IMG/VR virus record: IMGVR_UViG_2744054627_000013
Source: a virus
Taxonomy: Duplodnaviria; Heunggongvirae; Uroviricota; Caudoviricetes
Strand: one strand, 5' to 3'
DNA: 7,552 nucleotides
Shown: in pieces, positions 1 through 7,552 of the stretch
Layout of the letters: each line of letters begins with the position of its first letter
Numbering within the stretch: the stretch's first letter is position 1
The notes under the pieces: generated by a model
Seen by the model: the letters and a program-made list of their open reading frames with translations, nothing else
Told to the model about the DNA's origin: nothing
The model's database searches: none
Translations under genes and position numbers: made by a program

Positions 1-330
1 TGGCATGGAATCGAAATCAGTCGATACCCGCAGTATATATCGTGAACTGGGTGCAACGCTGAGTTACAACATGCGTCTGGGGAACGGTATGGAAATTGAA
101 CCCTGCCTGAAGGCGGCTGTGCGCAAAGAATTTGTCGATGATAACCGGGTGAAAGTGAATAGTGACGGTAATTTCGTCAATGATTTGTCGGGCAGACGTG
201 GAATATACCAGGCAGGTATTAAAGCCTCATTCAGCAGTACGTTAAGCGGGCATCTTGGGGTGGGGTATAGCCATGGTGCCGGTGTGGAATCCCGTGGAAC
301 GGGGTAGCTGGTGTGAACTGGTCGTTCTGA
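1..330 (+). CDS. 3' end of an autotransporter / outer-membrane beta-barrel gene (5'-partial, continues off the left edge); frameshifted about 12 codons before the natural stop as sequenced
   Basis: ORF 5-307 is Gly/Ser/Tyr-rich with alternating beta-strand pattern (...GIYQAGIKASFSSTLSGHLGVGYSHGAGVES). In the given frame it ends ...SRGTG, but shifting -1 at the CCC run at 291-293 gives ...ESPWNGVAGVNWSF-stop (TGA 328-330), a typical terminal-aromatic beta-barrel signature. Family assignment is from memory. Confidence 0.5.
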
Positions 331-488: not shown

Positions 489-520
489 ATTGGTGGAGCT
501 GGCGGGAGTTGAACCCGTGT
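489..520 (-). other. ssrA: Attachment-site core: partial copy of the 3' end of the tmRNA gene ssrA (T-arm, acceptor strand and CCA); no ssrA body in the window
   Basis: Reverse complement of 489-520 reads GGACaCGGGTTCAACTCCCGCCAGCTCCACCA, matching the remembered E. coli ssrA 3' terminus (GGACGCGGGTTCAACTCCCGCCAGCTCCACCA) with one mismatch. Sequence to the right (521-860) is AT-rich and not tmRNA-like. Confidence 0.7.
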
Positions 521-732
521 CCATAGTTATGTAATTCATTGAATTTAAATAGCCAAATATTGTTGATTTTACAAGCGGCTCTTTTGCGGAACTTTTTCTG
601 TCCTGTTACTGTCTTACTATTTATTTTAAAATAGTTTCATTTGGAATTAATGGTTTGTGGTTGCAGTTTCGGAGATAGATAGCATTTTTTGCTAAAAAAT
701 ATTTTTATAAAAAAATGTGTGTAAAAATGATG

Positions 733-755
733 TTATGCACAGATTTATGCACAGA
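733..755 (+). promoter_or_regulatory. Tandem direct repeat TTATGCACAGA x2 (12-bp period), each with a DnaA-box-like TTATNCACA core, in the cargo-operon upstream region
   Basis: 733-743 and 745-755 are identical 11-mers separated by one T. An imperfect palindrome TTGTCAACAATATTATTGACTC (804-825) lies 50 bp downstream, about 125 bp before the ATG at 949. Confidence 0.3.
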
Positions 756-2166: not shown

Positions 2167-3318
2167 TGATATTGCTGGTCGTATTACCGTCATATTCCTT
2201 TAAATATGAACCATAATGACGAAATAACATTTCCGGCCCTTTATGCCCCATTTGAGCTGCAAGCCAAAACAGGTTTGCTCCCGGCTGATATGGCGGGTGG
2301 CGAATGTATGCCTAGTTTGATATGGATTTCTGTAACGAATACCTGCTTTTCGCAATGTTGGCACCCATGCTTTTTCCTGATTGCATCAGCACTTGCCCAA
2401 GGCTTATTGGTCTTTGGATCTTCAAAGACAGTAGTATCCTTCATGAATGTAAATGGCTTCTGATTTATCAGCGCAACATTGCCTCTTCTGTCAGTTCAAC
2501 TTTCCGAGTACCTGCTTTTGTCTTTGTCCCTTTGATAACACCGACAACACTTGCGCTCTGGACATGGGCAGTTTTTCCAACAAAGTCGATATCACGCCAT
2601 CGAAGGCACATAATTCAGAACTACGCAGGCCTGTATGTATAGCGAACCGGAACAGATTTTCCCATTGTTTGTTTCCGGCTGCTGCTAGTAATGCATCAAC
2701 TTCTGCTGGTGATAGCGGATCAACTACGTAGCTGCTTTCTGCTTCTGACTTATCACTTTGGTAGCGCGAAGCTGTTACTAACGATACGGGGTTAATTTGA
2801 AGTACCCCATCGGTCACGGCTTCATCAAGTGCTGACCGCAGGAAAGATAACTGGTTGCGAATTGTTTTTAAGGTCGTTTTCTGATTTTGAATCCACGCTT
2901 TCAGGGTTGCTGGTGTTAATTCACTTGCAGGGCAAATGTGAAGTGAGGCTAACGCACTACGGCATTTTTTATAGCCACCAATCGTAGAGGGTGAAAGTTT
3001 TCTTGTTTCGCAGATTTCAAGATATTCGTCCAGGTACATCTTTACCGTTTTGCCTGCAGCAGCATTACCAAAAATTTTCAAACGAGCAGAACGGGGAAAA
3101 TATTCTGCATAAATGAATGTTCCCCTTTCGATCTTATTATGGATTTCGCCGAGTGTACGCTCGGCGTATTTAATGTTCTTTGGTGTTACTTCCAGATTGG
3201 AAAGCGGCTCACGACATCTAACTCCTTTGTAGGTGAAAGTTATATTGATCGTTTCTCCCTGGCGGTGTTTCCTGATTGTTACGCCGCGCGGTAGTTTGAG
3301 CAGTTTTGTCTGGCCCAT
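2150..3318 (-). pseudogene. int: Tyrosine integrase (lambda/P22-type with N-terminal arm-binding domain), about 390 aa when intact; interrupted by about 4 single-base frameshifts in the C-terminal half as sequenced
   Basis: ATG at 3318; N-terminal 275 aa in one frame (MGQTKLLKLPRGVTIRKH...HTGLRSSELCA). Integrase-like sequence continues in shifted frames: WRDIDFVGKTAHVQSASVVGVIKGTKTKAGTRKVELTEEAM, then ...FEDPKTNKPWASADAIRKK, then KAWVPTLRKAGIRYRNPYQTRHTFAT, then LFWLAAQMGHKGPEMLFRHYGSYLKEY... to TAA at 2150-2152. Catalytic R, K, H-x-x-R, H and Y are all present after correction. One shift is at a T5 run (2371-2375). Confidence 0.8.
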
Positions 3319-3526: not shown

Positions 3527-4393
3527 TTAACGAATAGTGTCGTTACTTTGAAGTACAGCAAATGCCATTAATACTTCTAAAGTATATCTTCTATAAAATT
3601 TAACAAAACCAACATAGAAAACATAGACGAAGAAAAAGCTAAGCATTATTGAAAGTAAACTATAAAGATAATCACTATGAGTACATAATCGATAAATAAA
3701 GGTTGGAACTGATACCCAAAATGAAATTATAAAGATTAAACATATGTTTCTGCAAAAACCATATAATGCAACATAGTTTTGAATTTTTGTTTGATGTTGT
3801 TTTGAAAACTCATAAACATAATGATATGCCAATCTGAAGAGATCATCATCAAGTCCGTTTTTATCTTGTAATAATTGGCGATTTGTTATGAACTTTTTCT
3901 CATAACCTTCTTTGATCATTAACCATGTTGTATTAGCTAAATGAAATGGTAGAGATTGAGAATAACATAGTTTTTGTGTTATAAAATCCCATAGTATTAT
4001 TGGACATAATACGCATTTGATTATGCGATTCTTTATTTTTGTTTTTTTATCAGCGCTTCTCTCATCGCATGATGGGCTACAAATGCTTTCTGAGGTATCT
4101 ATCAATTTTTTAAATAGATATTTGGAAGGATATCCTAATTCTTTATTCATGTATTTTTCGATAAAAAATGCTGACGTGATAGAAATAAAATGTCCAGCTA
4201 TATAAGATATAATAACTATTGAAGCGTAGTTCAAAATGCCAAAGATTTGACTTTGACCTCTGAGCAATTCACTTAAGTCAATAACAATATCTAGATCGAA
4301 TGTCAAACCACAGAAATACATTAATAGGATAAAAAAACCACCTGGTATTAAATATCCAAGAAAGTCATAGAATGAGAATGGATTTTGATTCAT
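3527..4393 (-). CDS. Hypothetical integral membrane protein, about 288 aa with about 5 predicted transmembrane helices, in a strongly AT-rich moron
   Basis: Long minus-strand ORF; ATG at 4393 preceded by GGAGA about 6 nt upstream (the TTG at 4417 in the ORF track is a less likely start). Hydrophobic stretches such as FFILLMYFCGLTF, IFGILNYASIVIISYIAGHFISITSAFFI, LIFIISFWVSVPTFIY and LLSIMLSFFFVYVFYVGFV. Composition is much more AT-rich than the flanking genes. Confidence 0.6.
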   Translation of the reverse strand: MNQNPFSFYDFLGYLIPGGFFILLMYFCGLTFDLDIVIDLSELLRGQSQIFGILNYASIVIISYIAGHFISITSAFFIEKYMNKELGYPSKYLFKKLIDTSESICSPSCDERSADKKTKIKNRIIKCVLCPIILWDFITQKLCYSQSLPFHLANTTWLMIKEGYEKKFITNRQLLQDKNGLDDDLFRLAYHYVYEFSKQHQTKIQNYVALYGFCRNICLIFIISFWVSVPTFIYRLCTHSDYLYSLLSIMLSFFFVYVFYVGFVKFYRRYTLEVLMAFAVLQSNDTIR

Positions 4394-4501
4394 TGTTGCT
4401 CTCCAATAATTTTTCAATTTGTAATATAACCTATATCTATATGTTAATAAATTACTTATATGTTCTTTTATGGCAGAGTTTGAATTCGTACGTGCTGATT
4501 T

Positions 4502-5024
4502 TTACGACTCAGTTAACTCTTTAAAGCGTTCCATAAACATCCCATAGGTATGGCCTGGCGACAGTGGAATAACTTTGAACATCTCTGTTGCCGGGATACC
4601 TTCCAGTACGGGCCAGAAAGAGCCATCATCAAGCCCGAGATCGCGGCGTTCGGTTGCCAGCATGATGAGATCGGCATATTTCACGGGCGTACTCATAACC
4701 GGGGTAACCCGTATTTCTCACGGATTACGGCGTCTATTTTTCTTCCATCCGTTTATAGTCAGGAAGAAGGCGTTTCAGTGGAGCCGGGATGTCCTGGCAA
4801 TACGCTTCTGTTGCATCATGCATTAACGCTTCAAAAGCAAATTCCTGCGGTACCAGCTGGCTGCAAAGCACCGCATGTTGGGCGACGCTGTAGAAGTGTG
4901 AAAGATGGCCGGCAAAGCGACAGATATTTGAAAGGGAAACCGCGATATCGTTAATATCGATGTTGTCTTTATTTATCCTGTCATAATAAAAATGTTTCCC
5001 GGAAAAAGTTTTAATAAATGACAT
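4502..5024 (-). pseudogene. yfdR: HD-domain phosphohydrolase, YfdR-like (5'-deoxynucleotidase family); split by two single-base homopolymer deletions as sequenced
   Basis: N-terminal part (ORF ending 4734) carries the HD signature region (...RFAGHLSHFYSVAQHAVLCSQLV...HDATEAY...) and ends ...KRMEEK-stop at a T5 run (4737-4741). The C-terminal part (4696-4502, MSTPVKYADLIMLATERRDLGLDDGSFWP...) is in another frame, restored after a G4 run at 4701-4704. ATG at 5024 has GGAG 6 nt upstream; a GTG at 5036 is an alternative start. Gene name is from memory of the CPS-53 yfdPQR module. Confidence 0.65.
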
Positions 5025-5157
5025 TTTGTTCTCCACTGTTTTATATGCGCTGCACCGCGCTGAATTTTGGTTAAAGAAAACCCTCCTCGCCTTCAGGCAT
5101 TATTGAGTCAATTACGTTTCCATAAATGCCCCCGCAGGGGCATTTGCAGTAATGAAA

Positions 5158-6047: not shown

Positions 6048-6410
6048 TTAACGACCTGCTGCGCGGAGTTTTCCGTCAGGTTCACCGGCAAGAGTCAGTA
6101 ATTGTCCCTGGTCTTCCTGCAGAATAGTCAGGCGACCACCGCGATTGACATACATCGGCGTTTCGGTGGTGTCTTCTTCGGAAATTTTCCCGCGGTTAGT
6201 TGGGCGAACATATGAGAGTTTGTGTTTGATTTTCACACGGTTCTCATCAAACGGTTCGATTTCCAGGTTGAGCGAGACCTTACCTTTGGTTTTCGTGTTC
6301 ATCACACCGGAAGCGACTTCACTGAGAACTGCGCCGATTTTGGTTTCAAATACGCCGCCGTCCAGCTCCCCGATAAATGCCTGCACATCAGTACTGCGTT
6401 CGCTAGCCAT
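6048..6410 (-). CDS. Phage early protein, 120 aa, possibly YfdP-like by size and synteny; first gene of the minus-strand early module in this window
   Basis: ATG at 6410 with GAGGAG about 7 nt upstream (MASERSTDVQAFIGELDGGVFETKIG...). The ORF track's longer 174-aa version starts in G+C-rich sequence without an RBS and has an Arg/Pro/His-rich, non-protein-like N-terminus. Confidence 0.65.
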   Translation of the reverse strand: MASERSTDVQAFIGELDGGVFETKIGAVLSEVASGVMNTKTKGKVSLNLEIEPFDENRVKIKHKLSYVRPTNRGKISEEDTTETPMYVNRGGRLTILQEDQGQLLTLAGEPDGKLRAAGR

Positions 6411-6875
6411 TTTGCTGCTCCTCATCATATCGACCCTGCAAGGTCGGTTAGTTTCTCCACAAAACAGAGAAGAACACCTGCGGTGACTGCCGCCCGGATG
6501 GATTGGGTTATGAGCCGTCGTCCGGTGATGCTCTTCTCTGTTTTGTAAAAGGACGGTACCAGCCGGAAGCAAGGGTACAAGCTGGTACCGCCAGGACTAC
6601 ACACAGCATAAAGTTGTGGTGCCGGGTGCCTCCCGGTGCCTGGCGAAGGTTGCACACCAGGCGGGTGGGTATCCACAGAAGGTCGACTGTCAGCCTCAAC
6701 CTTAACCCGCGTGCGCTGAGCCGCATTCACCACAACGCTAAGGATTCTCTCTGGTTGAAAATACTTAGCTGTTATGTGCCTGCTTTTAGCCACATCAGGC
6801 GAGGTGGACCTGGTTATTCCCCAACAACAAGGATTCGGTTAATCTGGTTATCCCCAACAACGCAAAAGGAAAGAA
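6411..6875. other. G+C-rich, hairpin-dense non-coding block between divergent genes; candidate structured RNA or complex regulatory region
   Basis: No ORF with a credible start or protein-like composition. 13-bp inverted repeat AAAACAGAGAAGA (6461-6473) / TCTTCTCTGTTTT (6532-6544) encloses 58 nt; 12-bp stem GACGGTACCAGC (6552-6563) / GCTGGTACCGCC (6581-6592) with one mismatch; further CCGGG/CCCGG hairpin at 6622-6636. Confidence 0.35.
6810..6861 (+). promoter_or_regulatory. Two direct repeats CTGGTTAT(T)CCCCAACAAC spaced 34 bp apart, immediately upstream of the + strand small gene; candidate operator or iteron sites
   Basis: Copies at 6810-6828 and 6844-6861, with a related CTGGTT at 6751-6756; the second copy ends 15 bp before the ATG at 6876. 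Confidence 0.35.
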
Positions 6876-7100
6876 ATGTCCGGTAATATCTATACGCTGT
6901 ACAAATCCCACTGTGAAAATGTTGGAAAGTATCGGGGCATTGAAATCAGTGGGGTAGTGTCATCAGTCGAAATAAGCAAAGTTGAATCAAGGGCAACATT
7001 ACTTACTCTTTTGGACCTTGTCTTACATGAGCACCGGAAGAAATTCGGCACTCCCTATAATCAGTTGAATGGGAAAAGGCTCTGGTTCACCTTATTCTGA
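6876..7100 (+). CDS. Hypothetical small protein, 74 aa, first of an overlapping pair (or N-terminal part of one about 143-aa protein if an A-run at 7074-7077 carries a deletion)
   Basis: ATG at 6876 with AAGGA 5 nt upstream; AT-rich; stop TGA overlaps the next ATG (TGATG at 7098-7102). Confidence 0.45.
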   Translation: MSGNIYTLYKSHCENVGKYRGIEISGVVSSVEISKVESRATLLTLLDLVLHEHRKKFGTPYNQLNGKRLWFTLF

Positions 7101-7309
7101 TGAAGCATCACTGGATGCCAAAACAGATTAATGAGATGAAATTTGATGAACTTCTTCTTTCAATTCAGGATGAACTCACACTTGATAAAATAAGCGTAAC
7201 CGCCCAGAAATTTTTAGATTATCGAGACTGGAGATCACAAATTCATCACTTTGATGATTTTGACGAAAATGAATGGGATCCTAATTTGTCTGCACAATAT
7301 CTAAAGTAA
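7100..7309 (+). CDS. Hypothetical small protein, 69 aa, acidic C-terminus (DDFDENEWDP); overlaps the upstream gene by one base
   Basis: ATG at 7100 within TGATG; its frame is open upstream to 7061, so fusion with the 74-aa ORF cannot be excluded; 3' end overlaps the convergent minus-strand gene by 29 nt. Confidence 0.45.
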   Translation: MKHHWMPKQINEMKFDELLLSIQDELTLDKISVTAQKFLDYRDWRSQIHHFDDFDENEWDPNLSAQYLK

Positions 7310-7487: not shown

Positions 7488-7552
7488 TTCACATCTCCTC
7501 AAGTTATCAGTTACTTGTTGATGGGACCAGATTGTTAAGAGCTAAGCGTCGT

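What the first reader, a model, noticed from the sequence alone, without database searches (positions are those of the whole stretch)
6411..6875. About 460-bp G+C-rich, hairpin-dense non-coding block at the head of the early module
Between the divergent starts at 6410 and 6876 there is no credible ORF (translations are Arg/Pro/Gly-rich without RBS), yet the segment is G+C-rich against AT-rich flanks and contains several long inverted repeats (13-bp stem 6461-6473 with 6532-6544; 12-bp stem 6552-6563 with 6581-6592; shorter GC hairpins near 6620-6640). A plain divergent promoter region would normally be AT-rich. It could be a structured non-coding RNA, an antitermination or processing element for the early transcript, or an origin-like element. 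I cannot assign it to a known RNA family from memory.
Basis: seen in the sequence. Interest (0 to 1): 0.65.

Follow-up and report, generated by a model that had tools for sequence, protein, structure and literature searches.

The report
Structured prophage leader RNA, STnc100-like
The G+C-rich gap upstream of yfdP encodes no protein: on the reverse strand it specifies a conserved, pseudoknotted RNA that is a divergent, unrecognised branch of the STnc100/PasD prophage small-RNA family, followed by a terminator and a long hairpin, and homologous DNA occurs in more than half of complete E. coli genomes, sometimes mislabelled as a gene.

Summary
Window 6411-6875 is non-coding, 53% G+C (window mean 42%), and carries the stated inverted repeats.

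It is not a divergent promoter block. It is a mosaic of three modules:
- **6770-6875:** the upstream region of the + strand ECs1072-family gene.
- **6593-6769, minus strand:** a structured RNA.
- **6411-6592, minus strand:** a terminator-like hairpin (T1), a 25-bp hairpin and the yfdP ribosome-binding site.

The RNA core (6613-6736) has helices P1, P2, P3, P5 and P6 plus a pseudoknot. P1, P3, P5 and the pseudoknot show compensatory changes across relatives.

Rfam finds it as a full-length but sub-threshold STnc100 match (39.4 bits, threshold 47). Canonical copies score 52-132 bits and lie downstream of Q. The window type forms a separate "left-operon" subfamily. Wherever a cI or integrase gene could be recognised, it lies co-oriented between the two, in several genera of Enterobacteriaceae and Erwiniaceae.

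Coding is excluded. There is no codon-position bias, relatives differ by frame-shifting indels, and no protein family matches. The e14 "ymfH" ORF of K-12 overlies a decayed copy.

Function is inferred only. Most likely it is a leader RNA that ends at a leaky terminator ahead of yfdPQ. Rivals are a trans-acting Hfq sRNA or an aptamer-like control element.

Verdict: new variant of a known kind, moderate interest.

The parts
6770..6875 (+). Upstream region (probable promoter and 5' UTR) of the + strand ECs1072-family gene. It holds two 18-19-nt direct repeats, 6803-6821 and 6837-6855. This is a separate mosaic module, not part of the RNA domain.
   Evidence: The repeats are reported. The same about 92-bp module lies immediately 5' of a + strand gene in e14 (ymfI), in an O157 Rac-like prophage (L253) and next to sieB in a Hafnia phage (H55). 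It is found without the RNA domain in those genomes.
6737..6769 (-). P0 hairpin directly 5' of the core domain (GCUAAG...CUUAGC).
   Evidence: Inverted repeat I3; present in the minimum-free-energy folds. Relatives keep a hairpin at this place with different sequences (ST64B, phiES15; alignment A1). One G.U pair makes it valid only on the minus strand.
6613..6736 (-). Core RNA domain, the L-type STnc100-like fold:
- P1: 6613-6621 with 6728-6736
- AAU junction: 6725-6727
- P2: 6709-6724
- P3: 6663-6666 with 6705-6708
- Pseudoknot: 6646-6652 with 6697-6703
- P5: 6638-6643 with 6657-6662
- P6 (CCGGG-AGGCA-CCCGG): 6622-6636
   Evidence: - Rfam STnc100 matches 6544-6766 (-) at 39.4 bits, E = 5.5e-6.
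- My own model R1 gives 116.1 bits and a single hit in the window.
- P1 covariation on 85 family members: 7 of 9 pairs changed on both sides, 0 of 500 shuffles reach the observed score.
- P3, pseudoknot and P5 on 13 lineages: 95-98% paired, 13 of 15 pairs changed on both sides (blocks aligned by hand).
- Only 2 of 124 positions are polymorphic among 10 close relatives, against 15 of 360 in yfdP.
6593..6612 (-). Single-stranded linker UUUAUGCUGUGUGUAGUCCU between P1 and the terminator hairpin. The motif GCUGUGUGUAGUC is conserved.
   Evidence: The motif is kept in SfIV, e14, ST64B, phiES15, phiNP and F1055. In F1055 it persists even though the inner core is different. Related forms (GUGUGGAGUAA, ACGUGAAGUC) occur in other L-type members.
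6547..6592 (-). T1: an intrinsic-terminator-like hairpin (12-bp stem, 17-nt loop) followed by CCUUUUAC. The window has only 4 U; relatives have 5-7.
   Evidence: Inverted repeat I4; it is the 3' end of the Rfam match. Relatives have a hairpin plus U-run at this position with different sequences (ST64B, phiES15, L105). 14 of 33 distinct L-type copies have a detectable terminator within 90 nt.
6459..6546 (-). Long hairpin in the yfdP 5' UTR: 25-position stem with 23 pairs (2 of them G.U) and a 38-nt apical region. Candidate RNase III site or second terminator; its 3' arm ends in GUUUUGU.
   Evidence: Inverted repeat I1; present in the fold. Conserved in e14, ST64B, sal3, Stx2a_1447, phiNP and F1055, with one G-C to A-U double change in ST64B and sal3. 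In F1055 it precedes a different gene. G.U pairs make it minus-strand specific.
6408..6448 (-). Small hairpin (6429-6448), Shine-Dalgarno GAGGAG (6418-6423) and the yfdP start codon (6410-6408).
   Evidence: Read from the sequence and the hairpin scan. RefSeq annotates yfdP at the homologous place.

Best explanation
**What it is.** The block is the transcribed, non-coding leader of the leftward early operon of a lambdoid prophage, read on the minus strand. Its centre (6613-6736) is a compact RNA domain:
- A 9-bp closing helix P1 encloses hairpins P2, P5 and P6, a short helix P3, and a pseudoknot between the strand after P3 and the loop of P5.
- Two motifs are almost invariant: GGUGAAU and CACCGGGAGGCACCCGGCACC.
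- It is a divergent 'left-operon' (L-type) branch of the STnc100/PasD family of prophage RNAs.

A hairpin P0 precedes the domain. A conserved single-stranded linker and an intrinsic-terminator-like hairpin T1 follow it. Then come a 25-bp duplex, a small hairpin and the yfdP ribosome-binding site.

**How it most likely works (inferred).**
1. RNA polymerase coming from the left early promoter, or from an unidentified promoter upstream of 6769, transcribes the domain.
2. T1 has a short U-run and stops only part of the polymerases. This releases a stable, highly structured RNA ending near 6547.
3. Read-through transcripts become the yfdP-yfdQ mRNA.
4. The long duplex in that mRNA's 5' UTR is a likely RNase III target that separates leader from message.

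**Shown here:** non-coding status, strand, fold with covariation, family relationship, conserved genomic position.

**Inferred:** the start of transcription, termination at T1, processing, and whether the released RNA also acts in trans.
For: **Family and fold**
- Rfam STnc100 matches full length at E = 5.5e-6.
- P1 covaries across 85 distinct members.
- P3, the pseudoknot and P5 covary across 13 L-type lineages. Many distinct complementary pseudoknot strand pairs (well over a dozen on inspection) are tabulated across the family.
- Model R1 separates L-type copies (89-123 bits) from canonical ones (30-70 bits).

**Strand**
- Fold z = -5.96 on the minus strand against -2.65 on the plus strand.
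- Four G.U pairs are valid only on the minus strand.

**Non-coding**
-.

**Position**
- In all eight L-type loci where a cI-like or integrase gene was recognised, the element is co-oriented with it: downstream of cI, upstream of int.
- The same holds in the annotated phages SfIV, ST64B, phiES15 and sal3, and in e14.
- No promoter-like site lies on the minus strand between 6767 and 6875.
- P0 and conserved sequence extend upstream of P1.
- Candidate pL with TTGC-N7-GCAA operators lies about 0.9 kb upstream in L001, and directly upstream of a roughly 700-nt ORF-free leader in ST64B.

**Terminator**
- A hairpin plus U-run is kept with different sequences in relatives.
Against: - No transcript data were available, so no 5' or 3' end is known.
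- T1 in the window has only four U. The simple terminator scan did not call it: its 17-nt loop exceeds the scan's 3-8-nt limit and its tail has four T where five are required.
- 18 of 33 distinct L-type copies have no detectable terminator. Ten of these are followed within 25-50 nt by a Shine-Dalgarno sequence and ATG. A released terminated RNA is therefore not a universal feature.
- Transcription from pL would have to cross the ECs1072-family gene antisense.
- Canonical relatives are reported as Hfq-bound, independently made sRNAs (PMC4104026, PMC5331693, bioRxiv 10.64898/2026.05.13.724894). That favours a trans-acting role which this explanation leaves open.
- The P3/pseudoknot/P5 counts rest on blocks I aligned by hand. 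The MAFFT-only alignment gives 50-64% pairing there.
Confidence: 0.6

Rival explanations
1. A stand-alone, trans-acting, Hfq-dependent small RNA gene with its own promoter and terminator, like canonical STnc100/EcOnc27 and PasD. It would be made in the lysogen and base-pair with host or phage mRNAs, perhaps through the conserved linker GCUGUGUGUAGUC.
For: - Family relationship.
- Canonical copies are expressed, Northern-positive and Hfq-bound (PMC5331693; PMC4104026; PMC12711010; bioRxiv 10.64898/2026.05.13.724894).
- Canonical tandem units each carry a strong terminator and an AT-rich spacer.
- The window copy has a terminator-like hairpin, and a conserved single-stranded stretch just 5' of it, which is the usual seed position.
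Against: - No sigma-70-like promoter lies on the minus strand upstream of P0. Canonical copies have a TTGAC box about 35-40 nt before P1; the window type does not.
- The U-run is only 4-5 nt, short for Hfq binding.
- About half of L-type copies lack a terminator and run straight into an ORF.
- The element is always co-oriented inside the left operon.
Confidence: 0.3
2. A cis-acting sensor or control domain, aptamer-like. It would bind a small molecule, a protein or RNA polymerase and decide whether transcription or translation proceeds into the delayed-early left genes. It would be analogous in role, though not in sequence, to nutL/N or HK022 putL.
For: - Near-invariant junction and loop sequences sit between covarying helices, with a pseudoknot.
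- The same domain is joined to two kinds of 3' platform: a terminator hairpin, or a ribosome-binding site 25-50 nt away.
- It always sits in the leader of the left operon, ahead of varied small genes including kil.
- ST64B has no ORF between the candidate pL and the element, and the small ORF in that position in the window prophage is not arginine-rich (by inspection of its translation), so no N-like gene is evident there. Terminator-like hairpins nevertheless precede the first gene.
- Different inner cores occupy the same P1 frame in Stx2a_1447 and F1055, as expected for specificity variants.
Against: - I found no convincing mutually exclusive antiterminator pairing by inspection.
- Downstream genes share no function that would point to a ligand.
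- Canonical relatives behave as separate sRNA genes.
- HK022, the put paradigm, has no related sequence.
- No experiment supports this.
Confidence: 0.25
3. A decayed protein-coding gene: the 'ymfH' ORF of K-12 e14, or the 'frameshifted hypothetical protein' of RefSeq.
For: RefSeq annotates ymfH over the homologous e14 DNA, and a frameshifted hypothetical CDS in NZ_AP021944. Open frames of 122 and 72 aa exist.
Against: - No Pfam or NCBIfam family matches.
- Substitutions against ST64B are 25/32/36 by codon position, and against phiES15 32/31/28.
- Polymorphisms are 6/9/7, against 1/2/12 in yfdP.
- 1-nt indels change the frame between window, SfIV, e14 and ST64B.
- Annotators place different ORFs on both strands, or none.
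- Variation is compensatory for RNA helices.
Confidence: 0.03
4. A plain divergent promoter/operator region or an origin-like DNA element.
For: - The part 6770-6875 probably does hold the promoter of the + strand gene, and has two direct repeats.
- Four one-mismatch DnaA-box-like 9-mers lie in 6453-6856. The window holds 8 in total against 2.3 expected.
Against: - None of the four fits TTWTNCACA.
- The site at 6669 falls in the segment that differs in ST64B.
- There is no AT-rich unwinding stretch.
- In L001 the genes rightward of cI are regulators and a Q gene; no replication gene is near the element.
- No promoter-like site serves yfdP in the gap.
- Conservation is highest in the G+C-rich helices, with G.U asymmetry.
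Confidence: 0.05

Closest known systems
Rfam RF02076 STnc100 (EcOnc27 of E. coli O157) and the related PasD1/PasD2 sRNAs of EPEC
   Same: - Closing helix P1, the GGUGAAU junction, and the core CACCGGGAGGCACCCGGCACC, which is exact in every member collected because that 17-mer was the search pattern.
- A P5 hairpin whose loop pairs with the strand after P2, forming a pseudoknot.
- Usually a terminator hairpin at the 3' end.
- Carried by lambdoid prophages of Enterobacterales, co-oriented with an antitermination-controlled operon.
   Different: - Scores 30-41 bits on the Rfam model, against 52-132 for canonical copies.
- P2 is GCGGCUNAGCGCNCGC instead of CCCCCUGUGCGGAGGGG, and an extra helix P3 is present.
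- It lies in the leftward early operon between cI and int, not downstream of Q.
- No TTGAC promoter box precedes P1.
- About half of the copies have no terminator.
- Neither the pseudoknot nor this location is mentioned in the 2026 Pas preprint.
HK022 putL/putR RNA (processive antitermination by nascent RNA)
   Same: A structured RNA in the leader of the early operon of a lambdoid phage with no evident N gene, placed upstream of terminators.
   Different: put is about 74 nt, with two stem-loops and a triplex, and starts at the pL transcript's 5' end (PMC9378689). HK022 has no match to STnc100 or to model R1, and I saw no sequence similarity on reading its pL leader. The window element lies about 0.9 kb from the candidate pL.
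Lambda left-operon terminators (tL) and the RNase III site in the N leader
   Same: An intrinsic terminator inside the pL operon ahead of delayed-early genes, and a long duplex in a 5' UTR that could be cut by RNase III. The opposite-strand gene sits where lambda sieB sits.
   Different: Lambda's terminators are not attached to a conserved pseudoknotted domain. The only lambda relative found is a weak one between tR' and S: record 44850-44952, 16.2 bits, E = 0.013.
Transcriptional and translational riboswitches
   Same: A conserved aptamer-like core with a pseudoknot, found with either a terminator or an adjacent ribosome-binding site.
   Different: No ligand, no switching helices identified, no shared downstream pathway, and no Rfam riboswitch match.

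Membership tests
Rfam RF02076 STnc100 | Bit score at or above the curated gathering score (47 bits) | tested here: not met
   The window scores 39.4 bits. Its close relatives score 29-41 bits. Canonical copies score 52-132 bits.
Rfam RF02076 STnc100 | Significant full-length alignment to the model | tested here: met
   Model positions 1-206 align to 6766-6544 (-), E = 5.5e-6.
Rfam RF02076 STnc100 | Closing helix P1 next to the GGUGAAU and CCCGG-CACC motifs, with covariation | tested here: met
   Alignment A3, 85 distinct members including the window: 85% of cells paired, 7 of 9 pairs changed on both sides, 0 of 500 shuffles as high, slid controls 19-58% paired.
Rfam RF02076 STnc100 | Core hairpin CCGGG-AGGCA-CCCGG | tested here: met
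   Exact match at 6622-6636.
Rfam RF02076 STnc100 | Own promoter directly upstream; made as a separate sRNA | tested here: inconclusive
   No promoter-like site on the minus strand in 6767-6875. The scan is a crude consensus match, and no transcript data were available.
Rfam RF02076 STnc100 | Rho-independent terminator at the 3' end | tested here: met
   A 12-bp stem at 6552-6592 followed by CCUUUUAC. The U-run is weak (4 U), and the simple terminator scan did not call it.
Rfam RF02076 STnc100 | Location in the late region downstream of Q / pR' (the moron site) | tested here: not met
   In 60 of 62 canonical-copy/Q pairings the copy is on the same strand as, and downstream of, the Q gene. The window type is in the left operon between cI and int.
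Rfam RF02076 STnc100 | Hfq binding and expression | not testable with these tools
   Reported only for canonical copies (PMC4104026, PMC5331693).
PasD1/PasD2 (EPEC) | Near-identity to the E2348/69 PasD sequence; neighbours Q and LpxR | not tested
The described context (Q, LpxR, esterase, holin; bioRxiv 10.64898/2026.05.13.724894) differs from the window's.
HK022 put RNA | About 74-nt two-stem RNA at the start of the pL or pR transcript | tested here: not met
   HK022 has no STnc100 or R1 match. I read the putL sequence from the genome and saw no resemblance to the element; no alignment of the two was run. The BLAST compared the separate pL-proximal leaders of L001 and ST64B with HK022 and found only chance-level matches.
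Protein-coding gene (YmfH-like) | Reading frame conserved among relatives and excess variation at third codon positions | tested here: not met
   (uniform substitution by codon position; 1-nt indels). (no protein family).
Riboswitch | Conserved aptamer joined to alternative expression platforms | tested here: inconclusive
   Both terminator and ribosome-binding-site platforms are seen. No alternative pairing was demonstrated.
Riboswitch | A defined ligand | not testable with these tools
   No ligand is known, and nothing in the downstream genes suggests one.
Replication origin / iteron array | Three or more iterons or consensus DnaA boxes next to an AT-rich stretch | tested here: not met
   Only two 18-19-nt repeats. 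The DnaA-like 9-mers each have a mismatch outside TTWTNCACA. The region is G+C-rich.

The most novel reading that the evidence does not exclude
The whole STnc100/PasD superfamily, including this left-operon branch, may not be an ordinary base-pairing sRNA. It may be a pseudoknotted, aptamer-like control domain that binds a ligand, a protein or RNA polymerase. It would gate read-through or translation at the entry to phage operons: the early-left operon here, the late operon downstream of Q for canonical copies. The 3' platform would be interchangeable (terminator or ribosome-binding site), and alternative cores in the same P1 frame would act as specificity variants. That would be a new class of phage cis-regulatory RNA, present in many Enterobacterales prophages.
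Probability: 0.22. Interest if true: 0.8.

Novelty: new variant of a known kind. Interest (0 to 1): 0.55.

Why it matters
- **Prevalence.** DNA matching part or all of this block is present in 3093 of 5426 complete E. coli genomes, and 1844 genomes carry at least 80% of it. Some of those matches cover only the yfdP-leader module, not the RNA core. The L-type RNA itself was also found in prophages or phages of Shigella, Salmonella, Klebsiella, Cronobacter, Citrobacter, Lelliottia, Buttiauxella, Scandinavium and Pantoea.
- **Annotation.** Genome records label it as nothing, as a hypothetical protein or pseudogene, or as the gene ymfH in K-12. Rfam's threshold misses it.
- **Family boundary.** Recognising it extends a known prophage sRNA family into a second genomic niche: the leader of the early-left operon, which in different phages runs into kil, recombination, yfdPQR-type, excision or integration genes.
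- **Fold.** It adds a covarying pseudoknot to the family's structure.
- **Mechanism.** The evidence raises the possibility that these RNAs act in cis.
- **Practical steps.** It argues for removing ymfH-type ORFs from annotation and for adding an L-type seed to Rfam.

Tried and rejected
- **Protein-coding pseudogene (ymfH, PGAP 'frameshifted' CDS).** Rejected by codon-position tests, indels and the absence of protein families.
- **HK022 put RNA.** No similarity by Rfam, by my own model, or on reading the putL sequence.
- **svsR and C0293/co293 of e14-like prophages.** These lie elsewhere: svsR at the 3' end of cI (PMC12803456), and C0293, to my recollection of the K-12 map, near icd and ymfD.
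- **SrsR boxes of the K-12 yfdO/yfdP spacer.** None lie in the region.
- **tRNA-like element.** ARAGORN finds none in eight related loci. A T-arm-like CUGGUUCGAUUCCAG upstream in sal3 and Stx2a_1447 remains unexplained.
- **Origin or DnaA boxes.** See the rival explanation.
- **Promoter for the RNA in 6767-6875.** None found.
- **Self-versus-non-self duplex-energy test of the pseudoknot.** Only weakly discriminating: mean -13.6 against -11.7 kcal/mol, z about -0.8. Many lineages share similar pseudoknot sequences and the windows include other helices, so I relied on tabulated strand pairs and curated blocks instead.
- **MAFFT and covariance-model alignments.** Both put P3, the pseudoknot and P5 out of register between lineages.
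- **Literature searches.** Searches for ymfH, yfdP, ECs1072 and EcOnc found no description of an RNA at this site.
- **Antiterminator pairing.** Looking for one between the core and T1 by inspection gave nothing convincing.
Full report
**1. What is in the sequence**

The interval 6411-6875 lies between the start of yfdP (minus strand, ATG at 6410) and the start of an ECs1072-family gene (plus strand, ATG at 6876).
- Its G+C content is 53.1%, against 41.7% for the window. That is the top 3% of 465-nt windows. yfdP itself is 50.7% and only the right flank is AT-rich.
- The RNA of the minus strand folds far better than shuffled sequence (z = -5.96). The plus strand does not do as well (z = -2.65).
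- Four G.U pairs in the helices become A.C mismatches on the plus strand.

The transcribed strand is therefore the minus strand, the same as yfdP.

**2. It is not coding**

Mechanical ORFs of 122 and 72 aa (minus) and 127 aa (plus) cross the region. RefSeq annotates a 'frameshifted hypothetical protein' there in a 99.6%-identical genome, and 'ymfH' over the homologous DNA of the K-12 e14 prophage. The evidence against coding is as follows.
- None of these translations matches Pfam or NCBIfam.
- Against ST64B (77% identity), substitutions fall 25/32/36 on codon positions 1/2/3. Against phiES15 they fall 32/31/28.
- Single-base indels shift the frame between window, SfIV, e14 and ST64B.
- Among ten near-identical loci, yfdP shows 1/2/12 polymorphic sites by codon position. 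The three ORFs show 6/9/7, 4/4/4 and 12/12/10.
- Annotators of related phages place ORFs on either strand, or none at all.

The core 6613-6736 has only 2 polymorphic positions in 124. That is tighter than yfdP, with 15 in 360.

**3. Three mosaic modules**

BLAST against phages and E. coli genomes breaks the block into pieces that occur independently.
- **6411-6593** travels with yfdP-type genes in many Stx phages.
- **6595-6807** occurs in Cronobacter phage phiES15 next to kil and gam.
- **6769-6861** occurs in Klebsiella phages and in an O157 Rac-like prophage.

The third piece always sits immediately 5' of a + strand gene:
- the ECs1072-family gene here;
- ymfI in e14;
- a 171-aa gene in O157;
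- sieB in a Hafnia phage.

So 6770-6875, with its two 18-19-nt repeats, is best read as that gene's upstream region. In the window the ECs1072-family gene is itself split by a frameshift near 7100.

**4. The RNA domain**

An Rfam scan gives one relevant match: STnc100 (RF02076) on the minus strand, 6766-6544. It is full length at 39.4 bits and E = 5.5e-6, below the gathering score of 47.

The genome hits are a mixture. Many come from Enterobacterales. The others come from G+C-rich Actinobacteria and assorted phyla, and I take them for chance matches, because they lack the rest of the motif.

Comparison of these sequences gives the following fold, in plus-strand coordinates:

| Element | Coordinates |
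|---|---|
| P0 | 6737-6769 |
| P1 | 6613-6621 with 6728-6736 |
| AAU junction | 6725-6727 |
| P2 | 6709-6724 |
| P3 | 6663-6666 with 6705-6708 |
| Pseudoknot | 6646-6652 (in the P5 loop) with 6697-6703 |
| P5 | 6638-6643 with 6657-6662 |
| P6 | 6622-6636 |

Support for each helix:
- **P1.** I tested it without fitting. The two strands were taken only by adjacency to the invariant AAU and CCCGG motifs in 85 distinct family members. 85% of cells pair, 7 of 9 pairs change on both sides, and none of 500 shuffles reaches the observed score. Slid controls pair at only 19-58%.
- **P3, pseudoknot and P5.** MAFFT and covariance-model alignments were out of register between lineages. I therefore cut the strands by their position relative to P2 and P5 in 13 lineages. 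95-98% of cells pair, 13 of 15 pairs change on both sides, and 0 of 500 shuffles reach the score. This alignment is hand-made and leans towards the structure.
- **Independent support for the pseudoknot.** Many different complementary strand pairs occur across the family: AAGGUUG/CAACCUU in the window, AAGGCUG/CAGCCUU, GACUGACAAA/UUUGUCAGUC, AACUGGCA/UGCCAGUU, CAGUUAA/UUAACUG, GGCAAA/UUUGCC, AGCUGGC/GCCAGCU. Canonical copies show AUCAGC/GCUGGU, CCAGUC/GACUGG and GGUGAUACC/GGUAUCAC.
- **P2 and P6.** These are almost invariant, so covariation says little about them.

**5. A distinct subfamily in a distinct place**

Canonical STnc100 copies have P2 = CCCCCUGUGCGGAGGGG.
- They score 52-132 bits on the Rfam model.
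- In 60 of 62 element/Q pairings they lie on the same strand as, and 281-4857 nt downstream of, a Q antiterminator gene.
- This agrees with published descriptions of EcOnc27/STnc100 and PasD at the moron site after pR' (PMC4104026; PMC12711010; bioRxiv 10.64898/2026.05.13.724894).

Window-type copies have P2 = GCGGCUNAGCGCNCGC.
- They score 29-41 bits on the Rfam model.
- A model built from 16 of them (R1; only P1, P2 and P6 specified) gives 89-123 bits for this type and 30-70 bits for canonical copies. The window has a single hit.
- In all eight window-type loci where a cI-like or integrase gene was recognisable, and in the annotated phages, the element is co-oriented with cI and int and lies between them.
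- One viral contig (L024) has one window-type copy in the left operon and two canonical copies after Q.

Hosts of the window type, from phage records and genome titles:
- Enterobacteriaceae: E. coli, Shigella, Salmonella, Cronobacter, Klebsiella pneumoniae, Citrobacter, Lelliottia, Pseudescherichia, Scandinavium and Buttiauxella.
- Erwiniaceae: Pantoea.

The e14 copy has a damaged core (CCGGG-GGCACCCGA) and scores lowest on the Rfam model.

**6. Surroundings and likely transcription**

- **L001, the near-identical prophage.** The cI-like repressor gene is followed by a terminator, TTGC-N7-GCAA operator repeats and a candidate pL. These lie about 0.9 kb to the right of the element, just beyond the window end. 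Next comes a boxA-like GCUCUUUAACAA (GCUCUUAACAA in the window, about 7527-7538, minus strand), then a 68-aa ORF, then the opposite-strand ECs1072-family gene. The layout matches pL-N-sieB of lambda.
- **ST64B.** No ORF lies between the candidate pL and the element. The leader is about 700 nt, G+C-rich, and contains a further terminator-like hairpin.
- **Promoter.** No promoter-like site lies on the minus strand between 6767 and 6875. The P0 hairpin and conserved sequence extend upstream of P1.

I therefore infer that the element is transcribed as part of a longer leftward transcript. This is not shown.

**7. Downstream parts**

After P1 comes a conserved single-stranded stretch (GCUGUGUGUAGUC). 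Then comes T1: a 12-bp stem, a 17-nt loop, and CCUUUUAC. Relatives keep a hairpin plus U-run here with other sequences.

The window's U-run is one U shorter than in most relatives, and the simple scan did not call T1. I read it as a leaky terminator.

Next is a 25-position duplex (6459-6546), conserved from E. coli to Salmonella and Citrobacter phages. ST64B has one G-C to A-U double change. The duplex is also present before a different gene in phage F1055. From established knowledge of RNase III, which cuts duplexes of roughly two helical turns (as in the lambda N leader and sib), it is a plausible processing site. Its 3' arm ends in GUUUUGU, so it could also act as a second terminator.

**8. 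What speaks for a cis role**

- Of 33 distinct window-type copies, 14 have a detectable terminator within 90 nt. Ten are followed within 25-50 nt by a Shine-Dalgarno sequence and ATG. Eight have a hairpin without a U-run, or nothing detectable.
- The first downstream genes are varied small proteins: membrane peptides, Kil, acidic proteins, Cys-rich proteins.
- In Stx2a_1447 and F1055 the same P1 frame, linker, T1 and long hairpin enclose a different inner core.

These features fit a leader or control element better than a self-contained sRNA gene. Against that, canonical relatives are reported as Hfq-bound sRNAs. In tandem arrays each unit has its own terminator.

I could not find alternative pairings that would make a switch, and I had no expression data. 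My estimates are:

| Claim | Confidence |
|---|---|
| Identity: conserved structured RNA, minus strand, STnc100 superfamily, new left-operon branch | about 0.9 |
| Leader-plus-leaky-terminator mechanism | about 0.4-0.5 |
| Purely trans-acting sRNA | about 0.3 |
| Aptamer-like control element | about 0.2-0.25 |

**9. Comparison and novelty**

The family is known, but I found three things undescribed in the papers I could search:
- this branch of the family;
- its position in the left operon;
- the pseudoknot.

Rfam's threshold misses the branch, and genome records annotate it as protein or leave it blank. HK022 put RNA, the known RNA antiterminator of N-less lambdoid phages, is unrelated. I rate the finding a new variant of a known kind, of moderate interest.

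Noticed in passing
window 491-538 (-) and 5-307 (+): A 48-nt copy of the 3' end of tmRNA (Rfam E = 1.9e-5) lies next to the C-terminus of an autotransporter beta-domain ORF. This looks like an ssrA-type attachment-site remnant marking the end of the island or prophage.
   Followed up: no
window 2491-3318, 4734-5036, 6876-7309: This copy of the left arm is decaying. The integrase ORF has only the Arm-binding and SAM-like domains. Only a fragment of the yfdR-like 5'-deoxynucleotidase remains. The ECs1072-family gene is split by a frameshift near 7100 into ORFs of 74 and 69 aa.
   Followed up: partly
window 3527-4417 (-): A 296-aa ORF in a stretch of 26-30% G+C with no Pfam match. It replaces part of what is present in the related prophage L001 and is possibly a recently acquired cargo gene.
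   Followed up: no
window 733-741 and 745-753 (+): Two DnaA-consensus boxes (TTATGCACA, fitting TTWTNCACA) 12 bp apart, with a third near-match at 779-787, in the AT-rich stretch beside the att remnant.
   Followed up: no
window about 7527-7538 (-); L001 9231-9242: A boxA-like sequence, GCUCUUAACAA (GCUCUUUAACAA in L001), on the leftward transcript. It lies just after the hairpin that serves as terminator of the + strand gene and just before a 68-aa ORF in the position of lambda N. That ORF is not arginine-rich.
   Followed up: partly
L001 9283-9342 (-) and L003 (ST64B) about 3100-3160 (-): A 60-nt element just downstream of the candidate pL, 88% identical between an E. coli prophage and Salmonella phage ST64B, with a compensatory change in one stem (CCUGG/CCAGG against CCGG/CCGG). 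It is a candidate early-leader RNA element with no clear similarity to HK022 putL.
   Followed up: partly
L129 about 2700-2830 (-), L127 2679-2815 (-): In Stx2a_1447 and Salmonella phage F1055, the same P1 helix (GUUGUGGU/ACCACAAC), T1 and long hairpin (plus the linker in F1055) enclose a different inner core, for example CCGG-AGAUCAGCA-CCGG. It looks like cassette-style exchange of the RNA's interior.
   Followed up: partly
L026 342-1038; L016 2265-3380; L079; L211 1100-2000 (Pantoea plasmid): Tandem arrays of three to five canonical STnc100 units. In L026 each unit is 253 nt and has its own strong terminator and an AT-rich spacer. tRNA genes lie next to the arrays in L026 and L016.
   Followed up: partly
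L252 11851-11953 (lambda record 44850-44952): Phage lambda has a weak relative between tR' and gene S: P1 GUUGUGCUG/CAGCACAAC, a GAAU junction and a CCGG-AAGCAGAA-CCGG hairpin (model R1 16.2 bits, E = 0.013).
   Followed up: partly
L003 5232-5308 (+): ST64B carries an isrK RNA (RF01394, 64.3 bits, above the gathering score) in its right operon.
   Followed up: no
window 6441-6403 (-): A possible 12-codon upstream ORF (UUG CAG GGU ... GGC UAG) preceded by GGAGAAAC. It overlaps the yfdP start codon in another frame and might couple translation.
   Followed up: no
L128 about 2880-2900 (-) and L129 about 2905-2925 (-): A tRNA T-arm-like sequence (CUGGUUCGAUUCCAG) lies upstream of the RNA element in sal3 and Stx2a_1447. 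ARAGORN finds no tRNA there.
   Followed up: partly
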